From the IMG/VR virus record IMGVR_UViG_3300037575_000020, positions 1-55,316 of that record: 55,316 bases of DNA. The stretch is one strand, 5' to 3'. Position numbers and translations under genes: made by a program. Below the pieces are notes generated by a model. That model did no database searches, had not been told where the DNA came from, and worked only from the letters and a program-made list of their open reading frames with translations. Below are positions 1 to 55,274 of the stretch, one piece after another; positions within the stretch are counted from its first letter, which is position 1; the number at the start of each line of letters is the position of its first letter. This stretch comes from a virus (taxonomy: Duplodnaviria; Caudoviricetes).

Positions 1-128
1 ACCGTTATTATTGCCGCGTACAAGTAGCAGATACCGTTATTAATCGTAAGCTATCGTGTAATAGACAATAAAAAACCCTTGTAGCGCGTGGCATACAAAG
101 GATTATCGGTAATTAAAATTATATTTGA

Positions 129-151
129 TGGTGCGCCCACCAAGACTCGAA
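129..151. repeat. att core, left junction (TGGTGCGCCCACCAAGACTCGAA), displaced tRNA 3' fragment
   Basis: Exact 23-bp match to 55199-55221. Confidence 0.95.
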
Positions 152-5292: not shown

Positions 5293-5454
5293 CTATGCCT
5301 GATTGTTAAGTGCTTTGATTAAAGCGTCTGCGTGGTTTACTGCGGTTTCTGCCGTCGCGTAGCTGGACTTACCAGTATTGGCGGTGATAAGCGCTTGCAT
5401 GGCAATGGCGGCTAGTTGCTCGCGCTTGGTCAGTTGTTCTGTTTTGTCTGCCAA
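5293..5454 (-). CDS. Small 53-aa first gene of the pL operon (not in the ORF track)
   Basis: TAAGGAG RBS and TTG start; MADKTEQLTKREQLAAIAMQALIT...HADALIKAL resembles the common phage 'LT.R..FAA.AMQ' family. Confidence 0.75.
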   Translation of the reverse strand: MADKTEQLTKREQLAAIAMQALITANTGKSSYATAETAVNHADALIKALNNQA

Positions 5455-5497
5455 AATTGACTCCTTATCTAATTGGGTTAGTTGCTTCCATACATCT

Positions 5498-5551
5498 AAG
5501 GTAACTTAACTTACCTTTTAAGTCAAGAAAGAAAGTAAGAAAGGTTATCAT
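5498..5551 (-). promoter_or_regulatory. pL promoter with OL operators
   Basis: Minus-strand TTGACT-17-TACCTT overlapping the palindrome AAGGTAA-CTTAAC-TTACCTT (5498-5517); a second degenerate site at 5532-5551. Confidence 0.7.
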
Positions 5552-12911: not shown

Positions 12912-13364
12912 ATGAGCGATACTATTGAAAAATCTGCGGTAACTGATTTATTAGAGGTGCAGGGCTGGCTGACTGGATGGGGAGACTTTTGTAATAATCG
13001 TGGCACTGTAGGTGGTCATCTGGGATATCAATCGCCGTGTGCGATTATCATGCGTGATAATGTAGAGCAGCACAGCGCAAGTGTTCGCCCGGTGCTGTGG
13101 AATATGGATGATCAGGCGTACTACACACTCATAGACCGCGAATTGGCTGGCATGAAGCAATCAGGAGATAAGGAGCTTATGATGTGGGCCAGTCTTATAC
13201 GGTGCTACTATCTTTACGGCATGCCTTACCGAAAGCTTAGCAAGTCGGTGCTAAGTAAGTATATACACAAAGATTCGGACAAGATATGCGACGTAAGGCG
13301 TGTTAAAAAGCATCTGGCTTATGCAGAGCGTCATATTTATGAAGCTATACTGGAGTTAAGTTGA
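12912..13364 (+). CDS. Q-like late antiterminator
   Basis: L..WG.F......LGYQSP N-terminus and C-terminal YYLYG..YRKL...L..AE HTH-like region; last gene of the nin-like block. Confidence 0.68.
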   Translation: MSDTIEKSAVTDLLEVQGWLTGWGDFCNNRGTVGGHLGYQSPCAIIMRDNVEQHSASVRPVLWNMDDQAYYTLIDRELAGMKQSGDKELMMWASLIRCYYLYGMPYRKLSKSVLSKYIHKDSDKICDVRRVKKHLAYAERHIYEAILELS

Positions 13365-14949: not shown

Positions 14950-14980
14950 ATTCTTTATTGAATGATGTATAGTGAGTATT

Positions 14981-15087
14981 CCAGCGCATAGCTGGCTTAG
15001 AAAATGCTATTACAAGAGAAAACTTACTTTTCACCACCGCATAGGTGGCTTCCTAAAACCCCACGGTCAAACGTGGGGTTTTTCTTT
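14981..15087 (+). ncRNA. Candidate small RNA with twin GCAUA-loop hairpins and a terminator
   Basis: CCAGC-GCATA-GCTGG and CCACC-GCATA-GGTGG; TATAGT at 14968; terminator 15055-15087. Confidence 0.5.
15055..15087 (+). terminator. Intrinsic terminator
   Basis: AAAACCCCACG/CGTGGGGTTTT stem with T-run. Confidence 0.8.
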
Positions 15088-15197
15088 ATGTGTCACTTAA
15101 TAAACTCCTTCAGCCCACCAACGCGCCAGCAAAACAACCCCATGCAAGCAAACATCAAGTGTTATTGCGTTAATTCATGTTTCACGATTAAAAAACC

Positions 15198-15226
15198 TTG
15201 ATTTTTGCTACGGCATAGGGTAAGTT
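15198..15226 (+). promoter_or_regulatory. Putative late promoter (pR'-like)
   Basis: TTGATT-17-TAAGTT upstream of tandem terminators and the terminase operon. Confidence 0.5.
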
Positions 15227-15310
15227 TGTGATATCGTGAACGGATAGGTTAGTGGATAACAGGTTGTGTATAGCAACTGCCACGCCTAGCCGCACTCTAA
15301 CTATATTCTA

Positions 15311-15390
15311 AAAAGCTCATACCTTAATTGGTGTGGGCTTTTTTTATGTCCTTTTGGCTCATAAGTATCTGCTTGTTGTGAGCCTTTTTT
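15311..15390 (+). terminator. Two tandem intrinsic terminators before terS (tR'-like)
   Basis: AGCTCATACC/GGTGTGGGCT plus T-run, then GGCTCATAA/TTGTGAGCC plus T-run. Confidence 0.7.
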
Positions 15391-50700: not shown

Positions 50701-53086
50701 GGCAAAATTCAATCTTGATGACAAGCAAAAAGATATGTACCGACGCGCTCGCGCTGCTATTGATTCGTCTGTACTTCACATGACAGTTGATACGCTATCA
50801 TCATTAGCTAAGGGCACCAAGCTGGTTAACATTCATACCATCAATAGATTGAAGCTGGCAGGACTAACCCCTATCGGTCATAACCTGATGATTCAGCAGC
50901 ACATGACGGACGAGCTCAAGAAGTTGGCTCAGTCTGGCAGTATCACGCCAGCCGCAGAGAAGCGTTTGCAAAATCAGTTAGACGGCGTGTTTGACGTGAT
51001 GGATAGTATCGCGGTCAAGTATGACGATCTTGTTGAAAAAGGCTATGCGCCGTTGATGCGATTTGGACACTATGCCGTTGAGGTTCGTGATAAATCCAAC
51101 AATGAGCTGGACTTGTTTGAGCTCTACGAAACCAAAGGCCAACAGCGCAAAGCTATTAAAGAGCTTAAAGAAAAATATGATGAGAATGATTTTGAAGTTG
51201 GCACTGGTACGCTCAATCCTGATGCGTTTAAGCAATTCACAGGCAAAGGTTTATCCCCTGAGACAGTGCAGTTGTTTGCCGCTGAGCTTGGCCTTGATGA
51301 TGACGGTGCCTATCAAGCGTACCTCAAAGTAGCAATCAGCAATCAAAGCGCGCTTAAACGTCTGATTCACCGTAAAAAGGTGCCGGGGTATAGCGAGGAC
51401 TTGCCGCGAGTCTTATCGTCATTCGTCATGAGTAACGCACGCTACAGTGGTCGTGCTCTGTATAATGGCGAGATCGAGAACGCCATACAAAAGATTGAGG
51501 ACGGTAACTTACAAGGTGAAGCGCAGAACGTCTTTGCTAACATGGAAAACCCACAAGAGGAGTTTGCAGGCGTGCGCGGTTTACTCTTCCATTACTATAT
51601 GGGATTTTCTACCGCATTTATGGTGCTTAACTTTACCCAGCCATTTACTCAGACCATACCTAAGCTGACCGCTTATGTTGGCGCAGCGCGTGCGCATAGA
51701 GACATGACACAGGCGCTAGGCATTATCACCAAGTACTCAGGCAAAGCGACATTTGAGTTCGGTAAAAAGGTCACAGGTAATGCTACACCTAGCTGGAAAG
51801 GTTTTGAGGACCACTTGCCAGCATGGGTGAAAAAAGAGGACTACTTACGCATGACTCGTGAGGGTCATCTTGATCCGCAAAATATCTGGATGATTCGAGG
51901 GCTTGAGCGCGGTAAGGCTGGCGTGATTAGCGGTCTATGGGGTAACTTATCGCGTGCCGCTGGTTGGGCCGCTGAGGTGTCAGAGACAATCAACCGTCGT
52001 GGCACTATGATTGCTGCCTTTAAAGTTGCGCAGACGATGGGTGATGCTAAGTTGAAAGCGGAAGGCTTTAACAGTCGCTATGACTTTGCAGTATCGATCA
52101 TTCAACAGACGCAAGGGGTTTATAATAAGGGCAATCGTTCAGGGCTGGCGCGTGGTACTGGTAAGCTTGGACAGTTTGGGCCATTGGTCATGGTGTTTAA
52201 GCAGTTCAGTATTAATTATGCTGAGCAGATGATTCGTCACGGGCGCGATAAAGAGGTTAAATCAATCGCAGTCGCTATGACGTGGCAGTTCTTATTGGCT
52301 GGCGCGTTAGGCTTGCCATTCACTGATGACTTGCGTGATATTGTAGAGGGCTTGCTATACCGCCTATTTGGTCGTGCAACCAACTTGACCGCATTCCTTC
52401 AGGACGAGCTTGGCAAAGATAATGCCGATGCCCTTATGTACGGCTTACTCAGTGAGAAAACACGCTTTGATATGTATGGTCGCTCAAACATGGGTAACTT
52501 TATCCCTGGTACTGACTTTGCTAGACCAAAAGAGGGCGATTGGGCGGAAGTCATTGGAGCATCAAGCGGATTCTTTGAAAACTTCTTTACCGCAGGCGAT
52601 ATGATCACCAAAGGCCAGTATAAAGATGCAGCAGTGATAGCAGCACCGCGTTATGTTCGAGATGCGGCAGCAGGTATTGAGATTTGGAACAATGGCGCTT
52701 ACCGCAACCAAAAAGGCGATAAGGTGATGGATATGGACCGCACTGATGCTGTCATCAAAGGTGCGTTACAGTTCAACCCAGCGTCCAATGCTAAACAAGG
52801 CCGTGAACGTAGCGAGAAGTACCACATGAAAAACATGGTGCTTGACAAGCAAAATCAGTTTGCTCTACAGTTGACAGAGGCGCTATATCAAGAGGACTAC
52901 GATAGAGTTGACGAGCTTTATAATGACATGGACGCCTGGAACGAACGCAATCCCGAACACTTTAATGTAGATATTGATAAGATTGAAGATTCGGCAGAGC
53001 GTCGTTTGGATAAGAAGGACTTTACCAGCGAGGATCGTCAGAAACTACCGGAGCAGTTAGATGACTATTTCACCGAAAGAGAATAA
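38774..53086 (+). CDS. darB: Giant DarB-like polyvalent virion protein (N6-methyltransferase, SNF2 helicase, metallopeptidase-like, ART-like and PLxRFG regions)
   Basis: EPSMGTG (44363), NYPF (44558), HEVGTGKT (46382), DEVH (46919), QRNGRGQRQG, HELGGH (49463), FKKWFG..YHGT..QIKS (from 49922), PLMRFG (51050). Confidence 0.9.
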   Translation: MSLNDKLFSIASSAVEKQRKTRDSRSAVSKGFDVATNKSYSNEDKKVAAKALREWENKTWKPKVEAKLKQELKARAPHLKPGSPKYNQTYESLFNKNYKDLQAAKAEAQQKIGTLRKPKQTQRELDNEYRTNESIRNDTVGVQAASHAARDTVSAVGGALATGTSRLLRAPLQLAADVGDNDDGGIFDRGAKALESYEDDISNNVYQAYGDIQQNGNFSQKLAVSAVEQVPALAASFGAAGVAAKGVQAVGAGAKATAAASYGVAGASMYPQAYLDGSDSTKDELENATSEQLASAERSQDIYKGMFDKNVKAGMSEDEAHAKARDQTISEIAEESGENVGLATLALSMMAPGVGSFTANRAAGGAVSQWGQKVFNKLAVKADASKVAGAAIPTAVGAGIVGLNVAEEGLQEGYTDLVAQQAAVDVGVKEEIDRAQSTEAVLMGGILGGLMGGGTYIGTRNSKLQQAQDGLKVAQQNYADIASTIPQLQEQITAVSPRSAEGQALITQLEQTKSALNAMASDAESRGIPRTSLARRAPRIDPSNSIDQEFDGQVDGATEIDEQGFDAALNPQGTPAAPVQPVVDSQPSEQELDAQDAQIAELIAEQQALDEAIDDDSAGKPVEESLAAAQAWYDDKRGENKQGLSGVVSRAAAKVEDAAFAEQQQVIAGTGATINDYIASRRAEQAQIDAEIAQVAADAKTERERQAAEQLKQKRDIERAEAEAEIAKRAELAQPYENEAFDTTVVGADGTPFNLARFWDSNMPAAIKAKAIADAFGGQVEQNVAKADWASLPEGVQKQLHQWMTGQLEAVRQRREAQIQPDQAVQEEQNKASISRQLNDSQVASGLTMPVRAEQAPAAPVETDAATQLTDENPTINIPAPVSDTSSVELNNKPSGRHAPTKTYGREPWAFIGENEYGMPIYQSQSGERITQKASGDFLGAETVNPETYKVDPKELAKEHYTVSEVAAARERYQKVQDQNKKQVISAPQQVDALPDGVYKSQPAARAAIKQQKLNPKEASIVKVDNGWELVESTPATRAQARVDSKNADRKEQEADQRSDDTAIPNNDVAIGKDGNAKWFGKQDKAQAFIDKKGISNTHEVVQAGKRFEIQPKAQTSGASKQTSQPTDVSIENRGPDTQELTATGKAKITGQAGWDGNIAKSRDLVRQLHEAGYLSKIETENAFTGGVYTLSEAAKLGLKRQDNPPPVKNIGDNITDKGGREHRLVSVNYNKSGGIDSVSTQYYSEADGKYKSIQERSLGDFWRMFGELDLSSTESEQVKATTAKKPKPLTDEQFAELTSSRTTPSTPTGEQSAPAKRAAAKKGVKENKVFGVAQQYYEPKQERLTVEPGDVKWRDSYSDTNAVIRQLVKKGYLEKSEFDNSNKEHSSLIELAIKGIKAEREAANIAPQATTEKTQNDVAPEPKGRFADNKLFTEDKVAAARARLKSKLTQVNSGLDPEILMDGMTLAGAYIESGVRKFGDYAKMMMSDVGPEIKPYLLTLWNGVRDYPGLDNEGMTNEVDSRAEFNKLMAETEQASEPTTPAKTKHPESIDVGNDKRLFVGENTEGEPIYEDKNGIRSKPEGNFMASEPVGINLGSEGPAYDVSRRADKFKTVEEISENNNDDTEAGTQDQAGAPEVRARGSDPQSGATPADSGDVATEQPTNDSATDEIASAGRPSVRGAGANVADEGSVPSQRNAEIGREGTGDTRTSNARAGKRATDSGTTSPAATKASATDLLIENPLEIVGGTPVQRFNKNREALELLQRLETESRQASPAEQKILAGYIGWGSFGQELFQGSWDHPKYKDEGVWKDRGEWLRETMGESAWKSAQRSITNAHYTDPPTVMAMWAMVERIGFTGGRVLEPSMGTGNFFSMMPAQVQSRSQLTGIELDEMTGSIAKQLFPQSNIQVMGYQESKTPDNFYDVVIGNYPFENTPVADRRYNKLNPMLHDYFFLKSMDQVRPGGLVISITSSGTMDKQNEGIRRELAKQADLVAAIRLPSGAFKDYAGTAVVTDIVILRKRAEKAAIVPEDATWVAVNDYVTPSGETIKLSQYYIDNPQNIIGTIDFGTGTTKFGAGMIVRRPDNMEERLQQAIDLVPENVMQADTTTDHLTYYANTTGERHGSLFSNDAGELMLARGDQMVKAQDVTSYEVKSKATTLDRETQIKDAIDLRQKFTALVDKERAGQEAETERKALKSAYNAFVKNHGSLRDSYALKYMDRVNDPFYYDLAALEQDDGKPAIIMSRSTTRGKAAIKNPSVRDAYVLARNNSVNPTLKEIAALTDKSEQEIRKELKDSGAVFEGPNGDIVPSDIYLSGNVRQKLREAEAALKDGNKAMKDNVASLKAVVPEDVPYFNIETKLGATWIPPEAYQDYIAHMLGKSDADNINVSFLSGRWKVKLGKGMNHAAEARTNYGTHHYHFSALVQAAFSNQVVRITRKIDGEEVYDHEATSEANERIAKIRGDFSEWLWSDPERRTDLEKEYNEARNAWATPKYDGSFLTFEGMALSLGKGEFNLREHQANAIWRAIVNRRSINAHEVGTGKTFTMGGIAIESRRYGIAKKPIIFAHNANSAAVAEEIRMMYPSARVLYVNNLEPKFRDIRLRQIANDDWDVIVMPHSLLDRMTLTEDTLMAMAADDIAALEQEFREAAEEDGENVSKINLDDDESIGKIRSTTAKELAKSRKRIIETIKKQAQQSSKANAVTFEDLGIDMILVDEVHEFKKPPIVTRMKMKGLNTSTSQRSIQMQFLTRYVRQMNNGGNVHTFTGTPITNTITEIYHQMRYVMETEMNEAAVSDWDGWFGSFATETQDVELSSAGDYEMVTRLAGFVNVPELRQMIGQYMDTVFAEDMPEMQPRKTESGKTMGDDLTDLERAHLLNGRTEGAKDRPYKKVINESADMTAEQKRIFAQVQEYAAEWRDADGKTRRKWMKDGDHRSPLIYGRLADTASFDARLLDPDLVGKEGQVPDDENSKTSRVIKNVRDIYDSHELASQVIFMDQGYGTKAKRSGGRNAQGEKNPDITVDIFSPVLDLVERLVQSGIPREQIAVVSGKTKKEERSRIAAAMNTGEIRVVIGSTQTLGVGVNMQRNLRAMHHMDAPYMPGELEQRNGRGQRQGNQWNTVLEYRYMTDRLDGKRWQILAVKQRFITAFMKAKGNARTIEGDAVEEESDILESFSEAAGDPRILQRVKLQKKQDQLNSKERLYTRGIADMRREIRTQTELAVNNQAALDAINPQAVEDALASQRDNFNVTIDGKTYDKRADATAALDEYIKKNVRLGDPLTKVGSYAGTPMSIVFKHGAPNPELVLTMGGQTFSGKGITGLESVMRNLPKQIEKKQASIEKSKATVEHLKKAVTQPFTQKAELERVGKQIKALEADLDLNPIPAPVWLRQGAPMDSEVFYGKQPFVVTGHQYSKDGYFVVAEDDKGSTTIPYLEAKDSVGMPLYDEQEFIAPEIVTKKDADSLTEEDRVPGTEEPKFSKTNPAKGLTGTTSQQVIGLLQNRFGKEAVAQLIKAGKLRVRTLNDFVGSNGRLLIPNDAEGFYHQGKVVLIADNLKSDTAVATLLHELGGHAGIQSMLSTQTYMGLMENFYDLVKSGNKYAVRAKQRAEASTYSASEARDEYIPYLITEYSQATERGGPLAVIKRFVNRVMAGVRAWVRDNTGVQLKITPNDITQLAERMVKRLAEQSMDSVTIAGMDNTAAMPQYSQESTNQTTTAAFKKWFGDSKVVDSNGKPLVVYHGTIKSFNEFNTTDFGALLGRGGYFTSNELEANSYSGGGTRIVPAYLSIENPYYVDSGLASVPSRQQMLKDGHDGVIYRDTDGSVKWAVAHKPTQIKSATNNIGTFDPSNPDIRFSRRYSNLGTDTSPTTAKEKAIDAAKQSAATALSSKFNLSLLLRRHLATPLHVGMLNPSFKTFFENVQSRIAYENNEAGRIQEYLPEIWDTKLMVGKRKKAIDKVSRALFDGTMADQVWTDPELEAKFNLDDKQKDMYRRARAAIDSSVLHMTVDTLSSLAKGTKLVNIHTINRLKLAGLTPIGHNLMIQQHMTDELKKLAQSGSITPAAEKRLQNQLDGVFDVMDSIAVKYDDLVEKGYAPLMRFGHYAVEVRDKSNNELDLFELYETKGQQRKAIKELKEKYDENDFEVGTGTLNPDAFKQFTGKGLSPETVQLFAAELGLDDDGAYQAYLKVAISNQSALKRLIHRKKVPGYSEDLPRVLSSFVMSNARYSGRALYNGEIENAIQKIEDGNLQGEAQNVFANMENPQEEFAGVRGLLFHYYMGFSTAFMVLNFTQPFTQTIPKLTAYVGAARAHRDMTQALGIITKYSGKATFEFGKKVTGNATPSWKGFEDHLPAWVKKEDYLRMTREGHLDPQNIWMIRGLERGKAGVISGLWGNLSRAAGWAAEVSETINRRGTMIAAFKVAQTMGDAKLKAEGFNSRYDFAVSIIQQTQGVYNKGNRSGLARGTGKLGQFGPLVMVFKQFSINYAEQMIRHGRDKEVKSIAVAMTWQFLLAGALGLPFTDDLRDIVEGLLYRLFGRATNLTAFLQDELGKDNADALMYGLLSEKTRFDMYGRSNMGNFIPGTDFARPKEGDWAEVIGASSGFFENFFTAGDMITKGQYKDAAVIAAPRYVRDAAAGIEIWNNGAYRNQKGDKVMDMDRTDAVIKGALQFNPASNAKQGRERSEKYHMKNMVLDKQNQFALQLTEALYQEDYDRVDELYNDMDAWNERNPEHFNVDIDKIEDSAERRLDKKDFTSEDRQKLPEQLDDYFTERE
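43638..43988 (+). CDS. Candidate overprinted gene in the +1 frame of darB (116 aa, helical)
   Basis: Protein-like amphipathic helical sequence spanning a disordered DarB linker and ending where the methyltransferase region begins. Confidence 0.6.
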   Translation: MMTPKQARRIKQERRKYEREEVTHNQELHQQIVETWQQNSPQMTARLTKLQVLDDLAFVVQERMWQTKDQYQASGMPRSDAKEQATREHLMLEPESEQQTAEPLHQPLPKQAQPTY

Positions 53087-53258
53087 CTTGCCAACCAGAC
53101 AAAGTAAGTTTATAGAATATCCAGTGCACTTCATTGTAGGCGCAGTGGATATCTATGTACGACTTGCTATGATTGCTGTGGTTATTGGTATCGCCTTGTC
53201 GATACTTTACACAGTTATCTATTTGCCGCTGGCATGGCTGTATGGTTTGATAGCGTAA
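53061..53258 (+). CDS. Small membrane protein
   Basis: 65 aa with a long hydrophobic C-terminal half, GGAG RBS, followed by a terminator. Confidence 0.45.
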   Translation: MTISPKENNLPTRQSKFIEYPVHFIVGAVDIYVRLAMIAVVIGIALSILYTVIYLPLAWLYGLIA

Positions 53259-53264
53259 ATTATC

Positions 53265-53298
53265 AAAACACCATTTTAGTAGCTAAAATGGTGTTTTT
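53265..53298. terminator. Terminator at the end of the late operon
   Basis: AAAACACCATTTTAG/CTAAAATGGTGTTTT perfect stem. Confidence 0.8.
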
Positions 53299-53344
53299 AG
53301 CAGGGTGGTTGTTGCTTTATGGCAGGGTAAACCTATTCAAATCA

Positions 53345-53374
53345 TTGTTATGCAGGTGTTTATACTGCTATAAT
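53345..53374 (+). promoter_or_regulatory. Extended -10 promoter of the ncRNA unit
   Basis: TTGTTA-18-TATAAT with TGc extension; the predicted +1 near 53381 coincides with the first base of a stem. Confidence 0.7.
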
Positions 53375-53380
53375 TGCTAT

Positions 53381-53738
53381 GCAAGGTTAAGCTGTTAAGC
53401 CGCAGGAACGAGAAACCAGCGGTGAGGTCGGATCGGGGTTACCCGGTTGCCTTGCAAACTTATTCAGTGCAGACTCTAACGTAAAAAGAGAAAGCCTAAT
53501 TGACTGGCAAAGCGCCCGATTAATACCGTAAGTTATAGCAGGTGGTGGAATAAGCAGGCACAAAGCGAAATAGACGTAGAAATCGGCTAGCCACTAGCGA
53601 ATTGTAGATGAAGCTTTAGTGCTGAAGCAGTAGAGGTGTCAAGCGCTTGGCATACAACTCTAGGAATACGGTTAAACTCCGTGCGTCTACCCCAACACCC
53701 AAAAGCCCACTCAGATTATTGAGTGGGCTTTTTTTATT
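53381..53738 (+). ncRNA. Candidate non-coding transcript of about 355 nt with tRNA-like modules
   Basis: Promoter, cloverleaf-like module 53381-53456, structured middle region, cloverleaf 53604-53694 ending in CCA, terminator; no plus-strand ORF of 60 aa or more. Confidence 0.65.
53604..53694 (+). ncRNA. tRNA-like RNA with expanded anticodon loop
   Basis: Acceptor GTAGATG/CGTCTAC, D-stem GCTT/AAGC, stem TAGAG/CTCTA with 22-nt loop, T-arm TACGG-TTAAACT-CCGTG, discriminator C, CCA. Confidence 0.65.
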
Positions 53739-53739
53739 T
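53701..53739. terminator. Bidirectional terminator between the ncRNA unit and integrase
   Basis: AAAAGCCCACTCA/TGAGTGGGCTTTT stem with T-run. Confidence 0.85.
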
Positions 53740-53817
53740 GCGTTCATAAACGCAAAACAGCCGCAGCCCTTATATATCAGCCGGGAGCCATAAGAATCGA
53801 TCAAGCGCAAGGGCGTT

Positions 53818-55023
53818 TTATCTAGCCTTTAATTCATCAAGATAGTCAGCATACGCTTGCATCATATCGCGTCTCTCTTCCAAAAATACCGTTCTATTAT
53901 AGGCGCGCCCATGCATATCGCGCACTCTATGGCCTAGTTGCATTTCTACCAGATTTTCAGGGTATTTTAGCTTTTCAACAATTAAAGTCCTGGCAGTCGC
54001 TCGAAAACCGTGTATAGTTTGCTTAGTCCCATCATAACCCAGGCGCTTTAGTGCCTGATTCATGGTGTTTTCACTCATTGGCTGAACGGTGGTGTGTATA
54101 GCAGGGAATAAATATTTACTACGTGCGTGATCTGATAACTCACGTATTAGCGCTATCGCCTGTCTTGGCAGTGGCACAATCAACTCTAAACCAGTCCTAC
54201 GCTGCGTTTTACGAGGCGTAAAGGACCAAGTACCCTCGTCTAAACAAAAGTCATTCCAGAGGGCATAACGTAGCTCGCCAGCCCTCACAAACAGCATAGG
54301 CATAAGCTTGATAGCCGTCCTTACTTCAAACGATCCTTGATAGTCATCAATCGCATTTAGTAATATACCGAGCTCTTTTGGGTCAAGCGTGGTTGGGTGG
54401 TGCTCGGTCACTGGTGTTTGCAATGCGCCTATTAAATCTTGCGTAATGTCACGCTCGCACCTTGCTGTTTGCACCGCATACCTAAATACCTGTCCAGCCA
54501 TTGTTCGCATTTTTATTGCCGTCTCCAGATACCCTTGCGCTTCAGCACTGCGGCACGCTTCTAGTATATCCATCGGCTTAATATCAGTCATAGGCGTATC
54601 ACCGATAAATTTATTCAATCGCTTGATTTGCCTGTAGTTATTGGCTTGCGTGGATTTTGCTATATGTGTTTTACGGCTCATGTACTCTTCGGCTATCGCT
54701 GCAAATGTGTTATTGGCTTGTAGTAATTGCTCGCGCTCATCCTCTAGTTTTTGTTGTTGTGGGTCAATACCTTCTGCCAATAGCGCACGAATACCTTTGC
54801 GCTGATCGCGTGCCTGAGCGAGCGTAATATCAGGATAAAGCCCCAACGTAATAGTCGCGTGCTTCTTAGTTATTGGTCTAACATAGTTCATTCGCCAGGA
54901 TTTAGCGCCTAGCTTTGTCACATATAAATACATGCCGCCACCGTCAGCAAGTTTATATGCCTTGTCTGCAGGCTTGGCTTGCTTAACCTGGCTATCGGTT
55001 AATGGTTTAATTATTTTAGCCAT
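53818..55023 (-). CDS. int: Tyrosine integrase, P4-like
   Basis: N-terminal arm-binding domain (DGGGMYL.V...G.KSW, LG.YP..TLA.AR); catalytic R (VRAGEL), HGFR, LGH and AYNR. Confidence 0.96.
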   Translation of the reverse strand: MAKIIKPLTDSQVKQAKPADKAYKLADGGGMYLYVTKLGAKSWRMNYVRPITKKHATITLGLYPDITLAQARDQRKGIRALLAEGIDPQQQKLEDEREQLLQANNTFAAIAEEYMSRKTHIAKSTQANNYRQIKRLNKFIGDTPMTDIKPMDILEACRSAEAQGYLETAIKMRTMAGQVFRYAVQTARCERDITQDLIGALQTPVTEHHPTTLDPKELGILLNAIDDYQGSFEVRTAIKLMPMLFVRAGELRYALWNDFCLDEGTWSFTPRKTQRRTGLELIVPLPRQAIALIRELSDHARSKYLFPAIHTTVQPMSENTMNQALKRLGYDGTKQTIHGFRATARTLIVEKLKYPENLVEMQLGHRVRDMHGRAYNRTVFLEERRDMMQAYADYLDELKAR

Positions 55024-55198: not shown

Positions 55199-55221
55199 TG
55201 GTGCGCCCACCAAGACTCGAA
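55199..55221. repeat. att core, right junction, inside the tRNA 3' end
   Basis: Exact 23-bp match to 129-151. Confidence 0.95.
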
Positions 55222-55274
55222 CTCGGATCGATCGCTTAGGAGGCAACTGCTCTATCCTGTTGAGCTATAGGCGC
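55199..55274 (-). tRNA. tRNA-Arg(CCT), integration target
   Basis: 76-nt cloverleaf GCGCCTA...CT-CCT-AA...GTTCGAGTC...TGGGCGC-A-CCA on the minus strand. Confidence 0.97.

What the first reader, a model, noticed from the sequence alone, without database searches (positions are those of the whole stretch)
53345..53739. Stand-alone non-coding operon of tRNA-like modules beside the integrase
An extended -10 promoter places +1 at the first base of a 7-bp stem (GCAAGGU/GCCUUGC, 53381-53455) that closes a cloverleaf-like fold without CCA. A middle region of about 140 nt has several possible helices (CUCU/AGAG, GCC/GGC, CCGAUU/AAUCGG). A second cloverleaf ends in CCA six bases before a strong terminator. 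The unit is insulated by terminators on both sides, so it should be expressed independently, probably in lysogens. I do not recognise it as a known family. Hypotheses: RNase P-processed regulatory RNAs like C4/CI, tRNA-mimic decoys against tRNA-targeting defences, or decaying tRNA genes. This is my best candidate for an undescribed system.
Basis: partly seen in the sequence, partly recalled or inferred. Interest (0 to 1): 0.82.

Follow-up and report, generated by a model that had tools for sequence, protein, structure and literature searches.

The report
Mobile phage gene for tRNA-like RNA
A Psychrobacter prophage carries a small self-contained gene for a non-coding RNA whose last third folds like a tRNA that cannot decode; the RNA is found in environmental RNA data and matches no described family, but its function is unknown.

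Summary
The promoter-to-terminator unit at 53345-53735 is real, non-coding and on the + strand. Only one of the two proposed "cloverleaves" holds up.

- **tRNA-like part (53604-53694):** it has a 7-bp acceptor stem, a 5-bp T stem, a 7-nt UUxxA loop and N73-CCA. This grammar is expected 0.007 times per random 55 kb. The anticodon loop is replaced by a closed 7-bp helix with a tetraloop, so it cannot decode.
- **First module (53381-53455):** this is a context-specific leader. In two other phages unrelated hairpins replace it.
- **Conserved core:** about 222 nt (53474-53695). It is found after a Q-like antiterminator gene in two other phages. Three close relatives lack it.
- **RNA data:** three metatranscriptome contigs start at 53474/5. 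One has a sequencing adapter directly against 53474.
- **Known families:** Rfam, default ARAGORN and BLAST against phages and plasmids give nothing.
- **Distribution:** 2 of 151 Psychrobacter genomes.
- **Limits:** structure support is modest because only four near-identical sequences are available. Function is unknown.

Best reading: a mobile phage cargo gene for a processed, stable, non-decoding tRNA mimic. The scan noted the same stretch before (e1-6309978).

The parts
53265..53297 (+). AT-rich 15-bp hairpin ending in a T run. It probably terminates the preceding operon (4770-aa gene plus 65-aa membrane ORF) and marks the left boundary of the unit.
   Evidence: Read from the sequence. The terminator scan did not call it. 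L004 lacks it.
53345..53374 (+). Sigma-70 type promoter: TTGTTA, 18-nt spacer, TG-n-TATAAT (extended -10).
   Evidence: 10 of 12 matches, TG present. Both hexamers are identical in L004. The start site near 53381 is inferred.
53381..53473 (+). Context-specific 5' leader. It holds a Y-shaped fold closed by the 7-bp stem 53381-87/53449-55, then a linker at 53456-73. The last ~15 nt (53459-73) are shared with the other copies.
   Evidence: Fold: (z -1.93; 10 of 200 shuffles fold as well). Unrelated hairpins replace it in L006 and L010. It is absent from the three RNA-library contigs.
53474..53603 (+). A-rich 5' domain of the conserved core. It holds hairpin A (53474-90), hairpin B (53497-53522) and long helix C (53538-98).
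   Evidence: RNAalifold. Compensatory changes at 53507/53515 and 53542/53594. The RNA 5' end at 53474/5 comes from 3 contigs, one with an adapter directly against 53474. The fold is not more stable than shuffles (z +0.77).
53604..53694 (+). tRNA-like domain:
- acceptor stem 53604-10/53684-90
- D arm 53613-28 (6 bp, 4-nt loop)
- closed extended 'anticodon' arm 53631-62 (5 + 7 bp, tetraloop 53643-46)
- T arm 53667-83 (5 bp, loop UUAAACU)
- C73 at 53691
- CCA at 53692-94
   Evidence: Model R2 built from this domain finds host tRNA-Ala genes as its best non-self hits (26.6 bits). Homology between phage contexts stops at 53695.
53695..53735 (+). Variable 3' trailer and a bidirectional intrinsic terminator (stem 53701-53732). 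The terminator is shared with the convergent integrase gene.
   Evidence: The sequence differs in every context.
53818..55023 (-). Context only: tyrosine integrase, convergent with the RNA unit. The attachment-site tRNA-Arg(CCT) lies at 55199-55274.
   Evidence: phrog_1 integrase, E 9e-63. tRNA. att repeat at 129-151 / 55199-55221.

Best explanation
This is a small mobile cargo gene ('moron') of Psychrobacter temperate phages. It encodes a processed, stable, non-decoding tRNA mimic.

**Transcription.** Here it has its own extended -10 promoter. In other phages it sits in the leader between a Q-like antiterminator gene and the first terminator. Either position should give expression in lysogens and during late transcription (inferred).

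**Processing.** The primary transcript is about 355 nt. The context-specific leader is removed, leaving a 5' end at C53474 (suggested by RNA-library contigs). The 3' trailer is expected to be trimmed to the encoded CCA at 53694 by the host tRNA 3'-maturation enzymes (inferred). RNase P should recognise the 12-bp acceptor/T-arm stack with U-1/G+1 and C73-CCA at 53603|53604 (inferred). It may then release a 91-nt tRNA-like RNA and a 130-nt A-rich RNA.

**Action.** The anticodon loop is replaced by a closed helix and tetraloop, so the RNA cannot read codons. I think it most likely acts in trans, in one of two ways:
- as a mimic that binds a protein recognising the acceptor/T-arm/CCA end of tRNAs;
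- with the tRNA-like fold also giving stability to the attached 5' domain.
For: **Unit and strand**
- Promoter and terminator.
- Terminators with T runs on the same strand in all four contexts.

**Non-coding**
- No ORF is shared by all copies.
- One frame gains a stop in L004 and L010.

**Conserved core with sharp edges**
- Copies are 92.3-98.2% identical over 222 nt, with unrelated flanks.
- Homology ends at CCCCAA.

**Accessory and mobile**
- Present in the window, L004 (genome G001), L006 and L010 (genome G322).
- Absent from close relatives L003, L005 and L066.
- A Q-like gene lies directly upstream in L006 and L010.

**tRNA likeness**
- Grammar: 2 sites in the window against 0.007 expected.
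- Model R2 hits real tRNA-Ala genes full-length at 26.6 bits.

**Structure kept**
- 235 of 236 pair cells are standard pairs, and 2 pairs show compensatory change.
- The 4 variable columns of the tRNA-like domain all lie in hairpin loops. Variable columns are 4 of 92 there against 18 of 130 in the 5' domain (Fisher p 0.022).

**RNA data**
- 3 of the 4 runs laid hold one short contig each (204-331 nt) covering 53474/5 to 53676-53695.
- One contig has word depth 188 and an adapter directly against 53474.
- 20 runs from 17 studies hold part of the stretch.
Against: - Only four near-identical DNA copies exist, so covariation is weak. 25 of 500 shuffles reach the observed score.
- The window and L004 differ as much in the core (92.3% identity) as in neighbouring coding DNA (92.7%). 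That pair shows no excess conservation.
- Fold energies are not exceptional: core z +0.48, tRNA-like domain z -1.40.
- Rfam's tRNA model gives nothing even at E 10 on 101 nt, and default ARAGORN finds nothing.
- The contigs come from RNA libraries that can hold DNA, and contigs cannot prove RNA ends. The deepest one runs 85 nt past 53695, so a CCA 3' end is not shown.
- No partner protein, no target and no phenotype is known. The 'mimic' step is inference only.
Confidence: 0.5

Rival explanations
1. The working part is the A-rich 130-nt 5' domain (53474-53603), a trans-acting base-pairing or protein-binding small RNA. The tRNA-like domain is only a processing and stability element. RNase P cutting at 53603|53604 would define the small RNA's 3' end, as tRNAs punctuate other transcripts.
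For: - The 5' domain is weakly structured and A-rich.
- It has invariant single-stranded stretches, for example 53522-53541.
- The RNA 5' end lies at its first base.
- U-1/G+1 and CCA fit RNase P preferences (recalled, not from a call).
Against: - No complementary target above chance was found in the phage or in two host genomes.
- The 5' domain varies more than the tRNA-like domain (18 of 130 against 4 of 92 columns).
- The contigs span 53603/4 unbroken, although contigs cannot exclude cleavage.
Confidence: 0.22
2. It is a decaying tRNA gene (or a scar of an old integration into an anticodon loop) that hitch-hikes in phage cargo sites. It is transcribed but has no function.
For: - The T arm and D arm resemble a real host tRNA.
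- The window-L004 pair shows no excess conservation over flanking DNA.
- It is rare: 2 of 151 genus genomes.
Against: - The same 222 nt were kept, with sharp edges, in two unrelated phage contexts while everything around them changed.
- All 11 variable stem columns keep pairing, except in one cell.
- No change falls in the acceptor, T-arm or closed-arm stems.
- Each context has its own promoter and terminator.
- Word depth is high in one RNA library.
Confidence: 0.13
3. It is a working tRNA-Asp(GUC) with a 15-nt insert after position 37. The insert is either removed or tolerated.
For: ARAGORN at an 80% threshold with introns allowed draws exactly this.
Against: - The same ARAGORN setting gives 46 hits in the window and 48.5 per random 55 kb, so the call carries no weight.
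- The GUC triplet lies inside a 7-bp helix.
- The discriminator is C, whereas bacterial tRNA-Asp has G73 (recalled).
- The D loop has no GG, and the T loop has A where tRNAs have C56.
- Bacteria are not known to splice short tRNA introns (recalled).
- The fold is not a bulge-helix-bulge.
Confidence: 0.04
4. It is an immunity or antisense regulator of the P1 C4 / P4 CI type, processed by RNase P, or a cis-acting element of the late-operon leader.
For: - It lies next to the integrase here and in the Q-controlled leader elsewhere.
- It has an RNase P-like substrate shape.
Against: - No match to Rfam C4 or any other family at E 10.
- The best complementary matches in the phage are 12 nt at E 0.82.
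- Close relatives live without it, so it is not essential for immunity or late transcription.
- In the window no gene lies downstream on its strand.
Confidence: 0.06

Closest known systems
Phage T4 small RNAs RNAC and RNAD (from the T4 tRNA gene region)
   Same: They are phage-encoded small stable RNAs linked to tRNA genes and their processing, with function still unknown. I read passages of PMC3014915 and PMC9697503.
   Different: BLASTN against 50,697 phage records, a collection I assume includes T4 (I did not check), found no sequence similarity. T4 is a lytic phage of another host. I did not compare structures.
P1/P7 C4 and P4 CI antisense RNAs (Rfam C4, RF01695)
   Same: They are small phage RNAs cut out of a longer transcript by RNase P, because part of them mimics a tRNA acceptor/T-arm stack (recalled, not from a call).
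   Different: There is no covariance-model match. No complementary target was found in the phage. This RNA is longer, has a full cloverleaf-like domain, and sister phages do without it.
Ordinary phage-borne tRNA genes placed after the Q antiterminator (as in Shiga-toxin phages; recalled)
   Same: They share the genomic slot, between a Q-like gene's promoter and the first terminator. They also share the acceptor/T-arm/CCA architecture.
   Different: This RNA has no anticodon loop, fails Rfam tRNA and default ARAGORN, and carries a fused 130-nt 5' domain.
tmRNA and bacterial Y-RNA-like (YrlA) tRNA mimics
   Same: They are non-decoding RNAs that combine a tRNA-like module with another domain.
   Different: ARAGORN finds no tmRNA at default settings. 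There are no Rfam matches. No tag reading frame is kept. Here the acceptor stem is local, not formed by the two RNA ends as in tmRNA. Unlike YrlA (recalled), the acceptor end here is free.

Membership tests
tRNA (Rfam RF00005) | Score at or above the covariance-model gathering threshold, or a default ARAGORN call | tested here: not met
   No RF00005 hit at gathering, nor at E<=10 on 651 nt or 101 nt. Default ARAGORN finds nothing. The relaxed ARAGORN hit equals the noise level.
tRNA (Rfam RF00005) | 7-bp acceptor stem stacked on a 5-bp T stem, a 7-nt T loop with U54, U55 and A58, a discriminator base and CCA | tested here: met
   Found at 53604-10/53684-90, 53667-83 and 53691-94. The grammar is expected 0.007 times per random 55 kb. 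Model R2 aligns full-length to host tRNA-Ala.
tRNA (Rfam RF00005) | 7-nt anticodon loop presenting three free bases | tested here: not met
   The arm is a 5-bp plus 7-bp helix capped by a tetraloop, in all 4 copies.
tmRNA | Acceptor stem formed by the 5' and 3' ends, a tag reading frame, and a detector or covariance-model match | tested here: not met
   Default ARAGORN and Rfam find nothing. The only relaxed 'permuted' call places its tag outside the unit. The frames are broken by stops in L004 and L010.
C4/CI antisense RNA (RF01695) | Covariance-model match, plus complementary target sites in the same phage | tested here: not met
   No match at E<=10. The best complementarity in the window is 12 nt at E 0.82.
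C4/CI antisense RNA (RF01695) | 5' end made by RNase P | not testable with these tools
   The substrate shape at 53603|53604 fits. The observed contig start at 53474/53475 lies at the base of a 4-bp hairpin with no CCA after it.
Phage moron (self-contained cargo gene) | Own promoter and terminator, with presence/absence differences between close relatives | tested here: met
   L003 and L005 lack it at the same site. L066 lacks it after a Q-like gene whose protein is 89% identical to L006's.
T4 RNAC/RNAD | Sequence or structure homology | tested here: not met
   BLASTN (word size 11) against the phage collection found nothing. I did not compare structures.

The most novel reading that the evidence does not exclude
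The RNA is a phage-made tRNA decoy. It has a closed anticodon arm, so it stays out of translation, but it keeps a genuine acceptor/T-arm/CCA end. That end could soak up a host or rival factor acting on tRNA 3' ends. Candidates (recalled, not from a call) are defence toxins that add nucleotides to the acceptor end or cut it, such as the MenT/AbiEii type and acceptor-stem RNases. This would protect the phage or its lysogen. The self-complementary tetraloop (GCGC, or UCGA in other copies) might let two molecules pair.
Probability: 0.15. Interest if true: 0.8.

Novelty: new variant of a known kind. Interest (0 to 1): 0.55.

Why it matters
Phages are known to carry tRNAs and a few tRNA-shaped regulators. 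A conserved, mobile RNA present in RNA libraries, with a true tRNA 3' end, a sealed anticodon arm and a second fused domain, is not in Rfam. My three literature searches did not turn it up either.

If it is a mimic that engages tRNA-handling enzymes or tRNA-targeting defences, it would add an RNA-only counter-measure or lysogen trait to phage biology. It would also be a natural example of the 'tRNA scaffold' trick used to stabilise RNAs.

Its rarity (2 of 151 Psychrobacter genomes) and unknown function limit its present weight.

Tried and rejected
**Searches for known families and similar DNA**
- Rfam at gathering on the whole window, and at E<=10 on three sub-regions. I found only terminator-driven or junk matches.
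- BLASTN (word size 11) against phages and plasmids: nothing.

**Searches for more copies**
- Two metagenome contigs pattern scans: 0 hits each.
- A loose T-loop/CCA pattern in viral contigs gave 32 hits, all chance matches, mostly recurring sequences that read like coding DNA (not checked with an ORF call).
- BLAST of 401 Moraxellaceae genomes: 2 real hits and 3 chance hits.
- Model R1 on 151 genus genomes: 2 real hits. The 5 weak ones (12-16.5 bits) were judged chance. Three were aligned; of these one was checked and lies antisense inside a gene.

**ARAGORN with relaxed settings**
- It reads 'tRNA-Asp with a 15-nt intron', but this is at noise level.
- The relaxed 'permuted tmRNA' call was rejected for the same reason.

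**Target search**
- The phage and two host genomes gave only short matches at chance E-values; the six I read in sequence looked like coding DNA (not checked with an ORF call).
- A 15-of-16 match to the host flank at window 83-98 has E 0.82 and was treated as chance.

**Other checks**
- Fold z-scores gave no support.
- X21 raw RNA reads: 0 reads laid with 12% of the run read, so this is no test.
- An internal promoter for the 53474 end was rejected by eye: the -10 is poor.
- An archaeal-type intron was rejected: the fold is not a bulge-helix-bulge.

**Not used or not available**
- Complex prediction, structure prediction and the protein searches were not used, because there is no protein to test.
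- Supplementary files were not consulted.

Full report
**Setting.**
The window is a complete provirus record of 55,316 bases. It is bounded by a 23-nt repeat of the 3' end of tRNA-Arg(CCT), at 129-151 and 55199-55221.

The finding lies between three features. Upstream is the last forward operon, a 4770-aa gene ending at 53086 and a 65-aa membrane ORF at 53061-53258. Downstream is a convergent tyrosine integrase at 55023-53818. One related genome carries a record title naming Psychrobacter.

**The observation.**
- The scan finds TTGTTA-18-TATAAT with an upstream TG at 53345-53374, and a 14-bp terminator at 53701-53732.
- The 7-bp stem 53381-87/53449-55 and the CCA at 53692-94 are as described.
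- No ORF is common to all copies.
- Default ARAGORN, and Rfam at gathering or at E<=10, find nothing meaningful.

**Relatives.**
- *Same phage type.* Three viral contigs encode a 97-100% identical C-terminus of the giant protein. Only one, L004, has the unit, at 91% identity. It is the same DNA as L007-L009 in genome G001. L003 has a clean absence at the same site. L005 has an unrelated small ORF cassette there.
- *Other contexts.* Pattern and genome searches added L006 (a viral contig) and L010 (genome G322). These share only window ~53459-53695, at 94.6-98.2% identity over the 222-nt core. Unrelated hairpins replace the first 'cloverleaf'.
- *Position in those contexts.* There the unit lies directly after a Q-like antiterminator gene (phrog_79, E 9e-26 and 4e-18) and a TTGACA promoter. 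It lies before a terminator and the late genes. A phage whose Q-like protein is 89% identical (L066) lacks it.
- *Edges.* Homology stops exactly after CCCCAA at 53695.
- *Frequency.* BLAST found it in 2 of 401 Moraxellaceae genomes. Both covariance models found it in 2 of 151 Psychrobacter-genus genomes. Two metagenome scans found 0.

The conserved entity is therefore a ~222-nt core, an accessory cassette that sits in two classic cargo sites.

**Structure.**
RNAalifold on the four copies gives the following elements:
- hairpin A (53474-90)
- hairpin B (53497-53522)
- long helix C (53538-98)
- a cloverleaf at 53604-53691

The cloverleaf has these parts:
- a 7-bp acceptor stem
- a 6-bp D arm with a 4-nt loop
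- a 5 + 7 bp closed arm with a tetraloop, where the anticodon arm should be
- a 4-nt variable region
- a 5-bp T stem with loop UUAAACU
- then C73 and CCA

Evidence on the structure:
- Of 236 pair cells, 235 are standard pairs. Two pairs changed on both sides (53507/53515 and 53542/53594). 25 of 500 column shuffles reach the observed score, so support is modest.
- Variable columns number 18 of 130 in the 5' domain and 4 of 92 in the tRNA-like domain (Fisher p 0.022). The 4 all lie in hairpin loops.
- Two of those four turn the tetraloop GCGC into UCGA and keep a 10-nt palindrome.
- Against selection: window and L004 are 92.3% identical in the core and 92.7% in 2361 nt of flanking coding DNA.
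- Fold energies are unremarkable: core z +0.48, tRNA-like domain z -1.40, first module z -1.93.

**How tRNA-like is it?**
- *ARAGORN.* With introns allowed and an 80% threshold, it draws 'tRNA-Asp(GUC) with a 15-nt intron'. That setting gives 46 hits in the window and 48.5 per random 55 kb, so I give it no weight.
- *Generic grammar.* It requires a 7-bp acceptor stem, a 5-bp T stem, a 7-nt loop UUxxA, N73 and CCA. It finds exactly the real tRNA-Arg and 53604-53694 in the window. It finds 0.007 sites per random 55 kb (2 of 300). I wrote it after seeing the module.
- *Reciprocal model search.* A model built from the domain (R2) finds real tRNA-Ala(UGC) genes as its best non-self matches in two host genomes. 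The matches are full-length at 26.6 bits, with a near-identical T arm.
- *Rfam.* Its tRNA model still does not score the domain.

The domain is tRNA-shaped at the acceptor/T end and non-canonical elsewhere. It cannot present an anticodon.

**RNA evidence.**
Twenty runs from 17 studies hold part of the stretch, and 6 of them are RNA libraries. I could lay four runs.

| Run | Contig found | Covers | Note |
|---|---|---|---|
| X15 | one, 233 nt | 53474-53695 | starts at 53474 |
| X17 | one, 204 nt | 53475-53676 | |
| X18 | one, 331 nt | 53474-53695 | word depth 188; adapter letters directly before 53474; runs on 85 nt into a terminator like that of L006 |
| X21 | none | - | raw reads, 12% of the run read, so no test |

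- I recognise the adapter letters in X18 as an Illumina adapter from memory, not from a call.
- In 3 of 3 holders the contigs are short, confined to the core and share a start. That points to an RNA with a defined 5' end at C53474, and to removal of the leader.
- The caveats are that contigs cannot prove ends, and that DNA can be present in RNA libraries.
- A CCA 3' end is not shown.

**Mechanism.**
- *Shown:* a self-contained + strand unit; a conserved mobile core; a tRNA-like 3' domain without an anticodon loop; presence in RNA libraries, with contigs starting at 53474/53475.
- *Inferred:* constitutive expression; leader removal by an endonuclease; RNase P recognition at 53603|53604; trimming to CCA; action in trans as a tRNA mimic, or as a tRNA-stabilised small RNA.

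No antisense target stands out.

**Comparison and novelty.**
The closest analogues are listed below. None matches by sequence or model.
- T4 RNAC and RNAD, whose function is unknown. I read only passages of PMC3014915 and PMC9697503.
- The P1 C4 and P4 CI RNAs made by RNase P (recalled).
- tRNA genes placed after Q in lambdoid phages (recalled).
- tmRNA and YrlA mimics.

Three literature searches found no description. I class it as a new variant of a known kind, phage tRNA-derived stable RNAs. Interest is moderate because function is unknown and the family is narrow.

Noticed in passing
window 53259-53340; L003 5370-5440; L005 5380-5960: The gap between the 65-aa membrane ORF and the integrase is a cargo hot spot. 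The window and L004 hold the RNA unit there, L003 holds nothing, and L005 holds a promoter, a small ORF and a terminator.
   Followed up: partly
window 53737-53756; L003 ~5440-5500: A palindrome (TTTGCGTT CAT AAACGCAAA) lies just past the shared terminator on the integrase side. In L003 the related 10-nt unit is repeated five times in tandem. These may be binding sites for recombination proteins.
   Followed up: no
window 53643 and 53646: The tetraloop of the closed arm differs between copies by two changes together (GCGC to UCGA). Both versions keep a perfect 10-nt DNA palindrome and a self-complementary loop. Possible causes are RNA dimer formation, a protein site, or a template-switch mutation in a quasi-palindrome.
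   Followed up: partly
L011 1492-1521 (genome G315): A 21-nt stretch identical to the 5' strand of the window's first module lies at the end of a chromosomal gene, just before a terminator hairpin. It is probably chance (E 0.0013 per genome).
   Followed up: no
window 129-151 and 55199-55221: A 23-nt direct repeat of the tRNA-Arg(CCT) 3' end marks the prophage ends. The record includes about 128 nt of host DNA on the left and about 95 nt on the right.
   Followed up: yes
window 12912-13364 and 14950-15350: The window's own phage has a Q-like gene (phrog_79, E 2e-9). A separate leader region ends in a terminator (15333-15354) whose 3' half resembles the terminators that follow the RNA core in L006 and L010. 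This hints at how the cassette moved.
   Followed up: partly
window 53573-79, 53474-78 and 53525-30: Short segments of the 5' domain repeat strands of the tRNA-like domain: AUAGACG against GUAGAUG, CUCUA twice, and ACCGUA against the T-stem 3' strand. They could form alternative pairings with it. The MFE of the whole core uses a different alternative, pairing GGUGGUGG with the CCA end.
   Followed up: no
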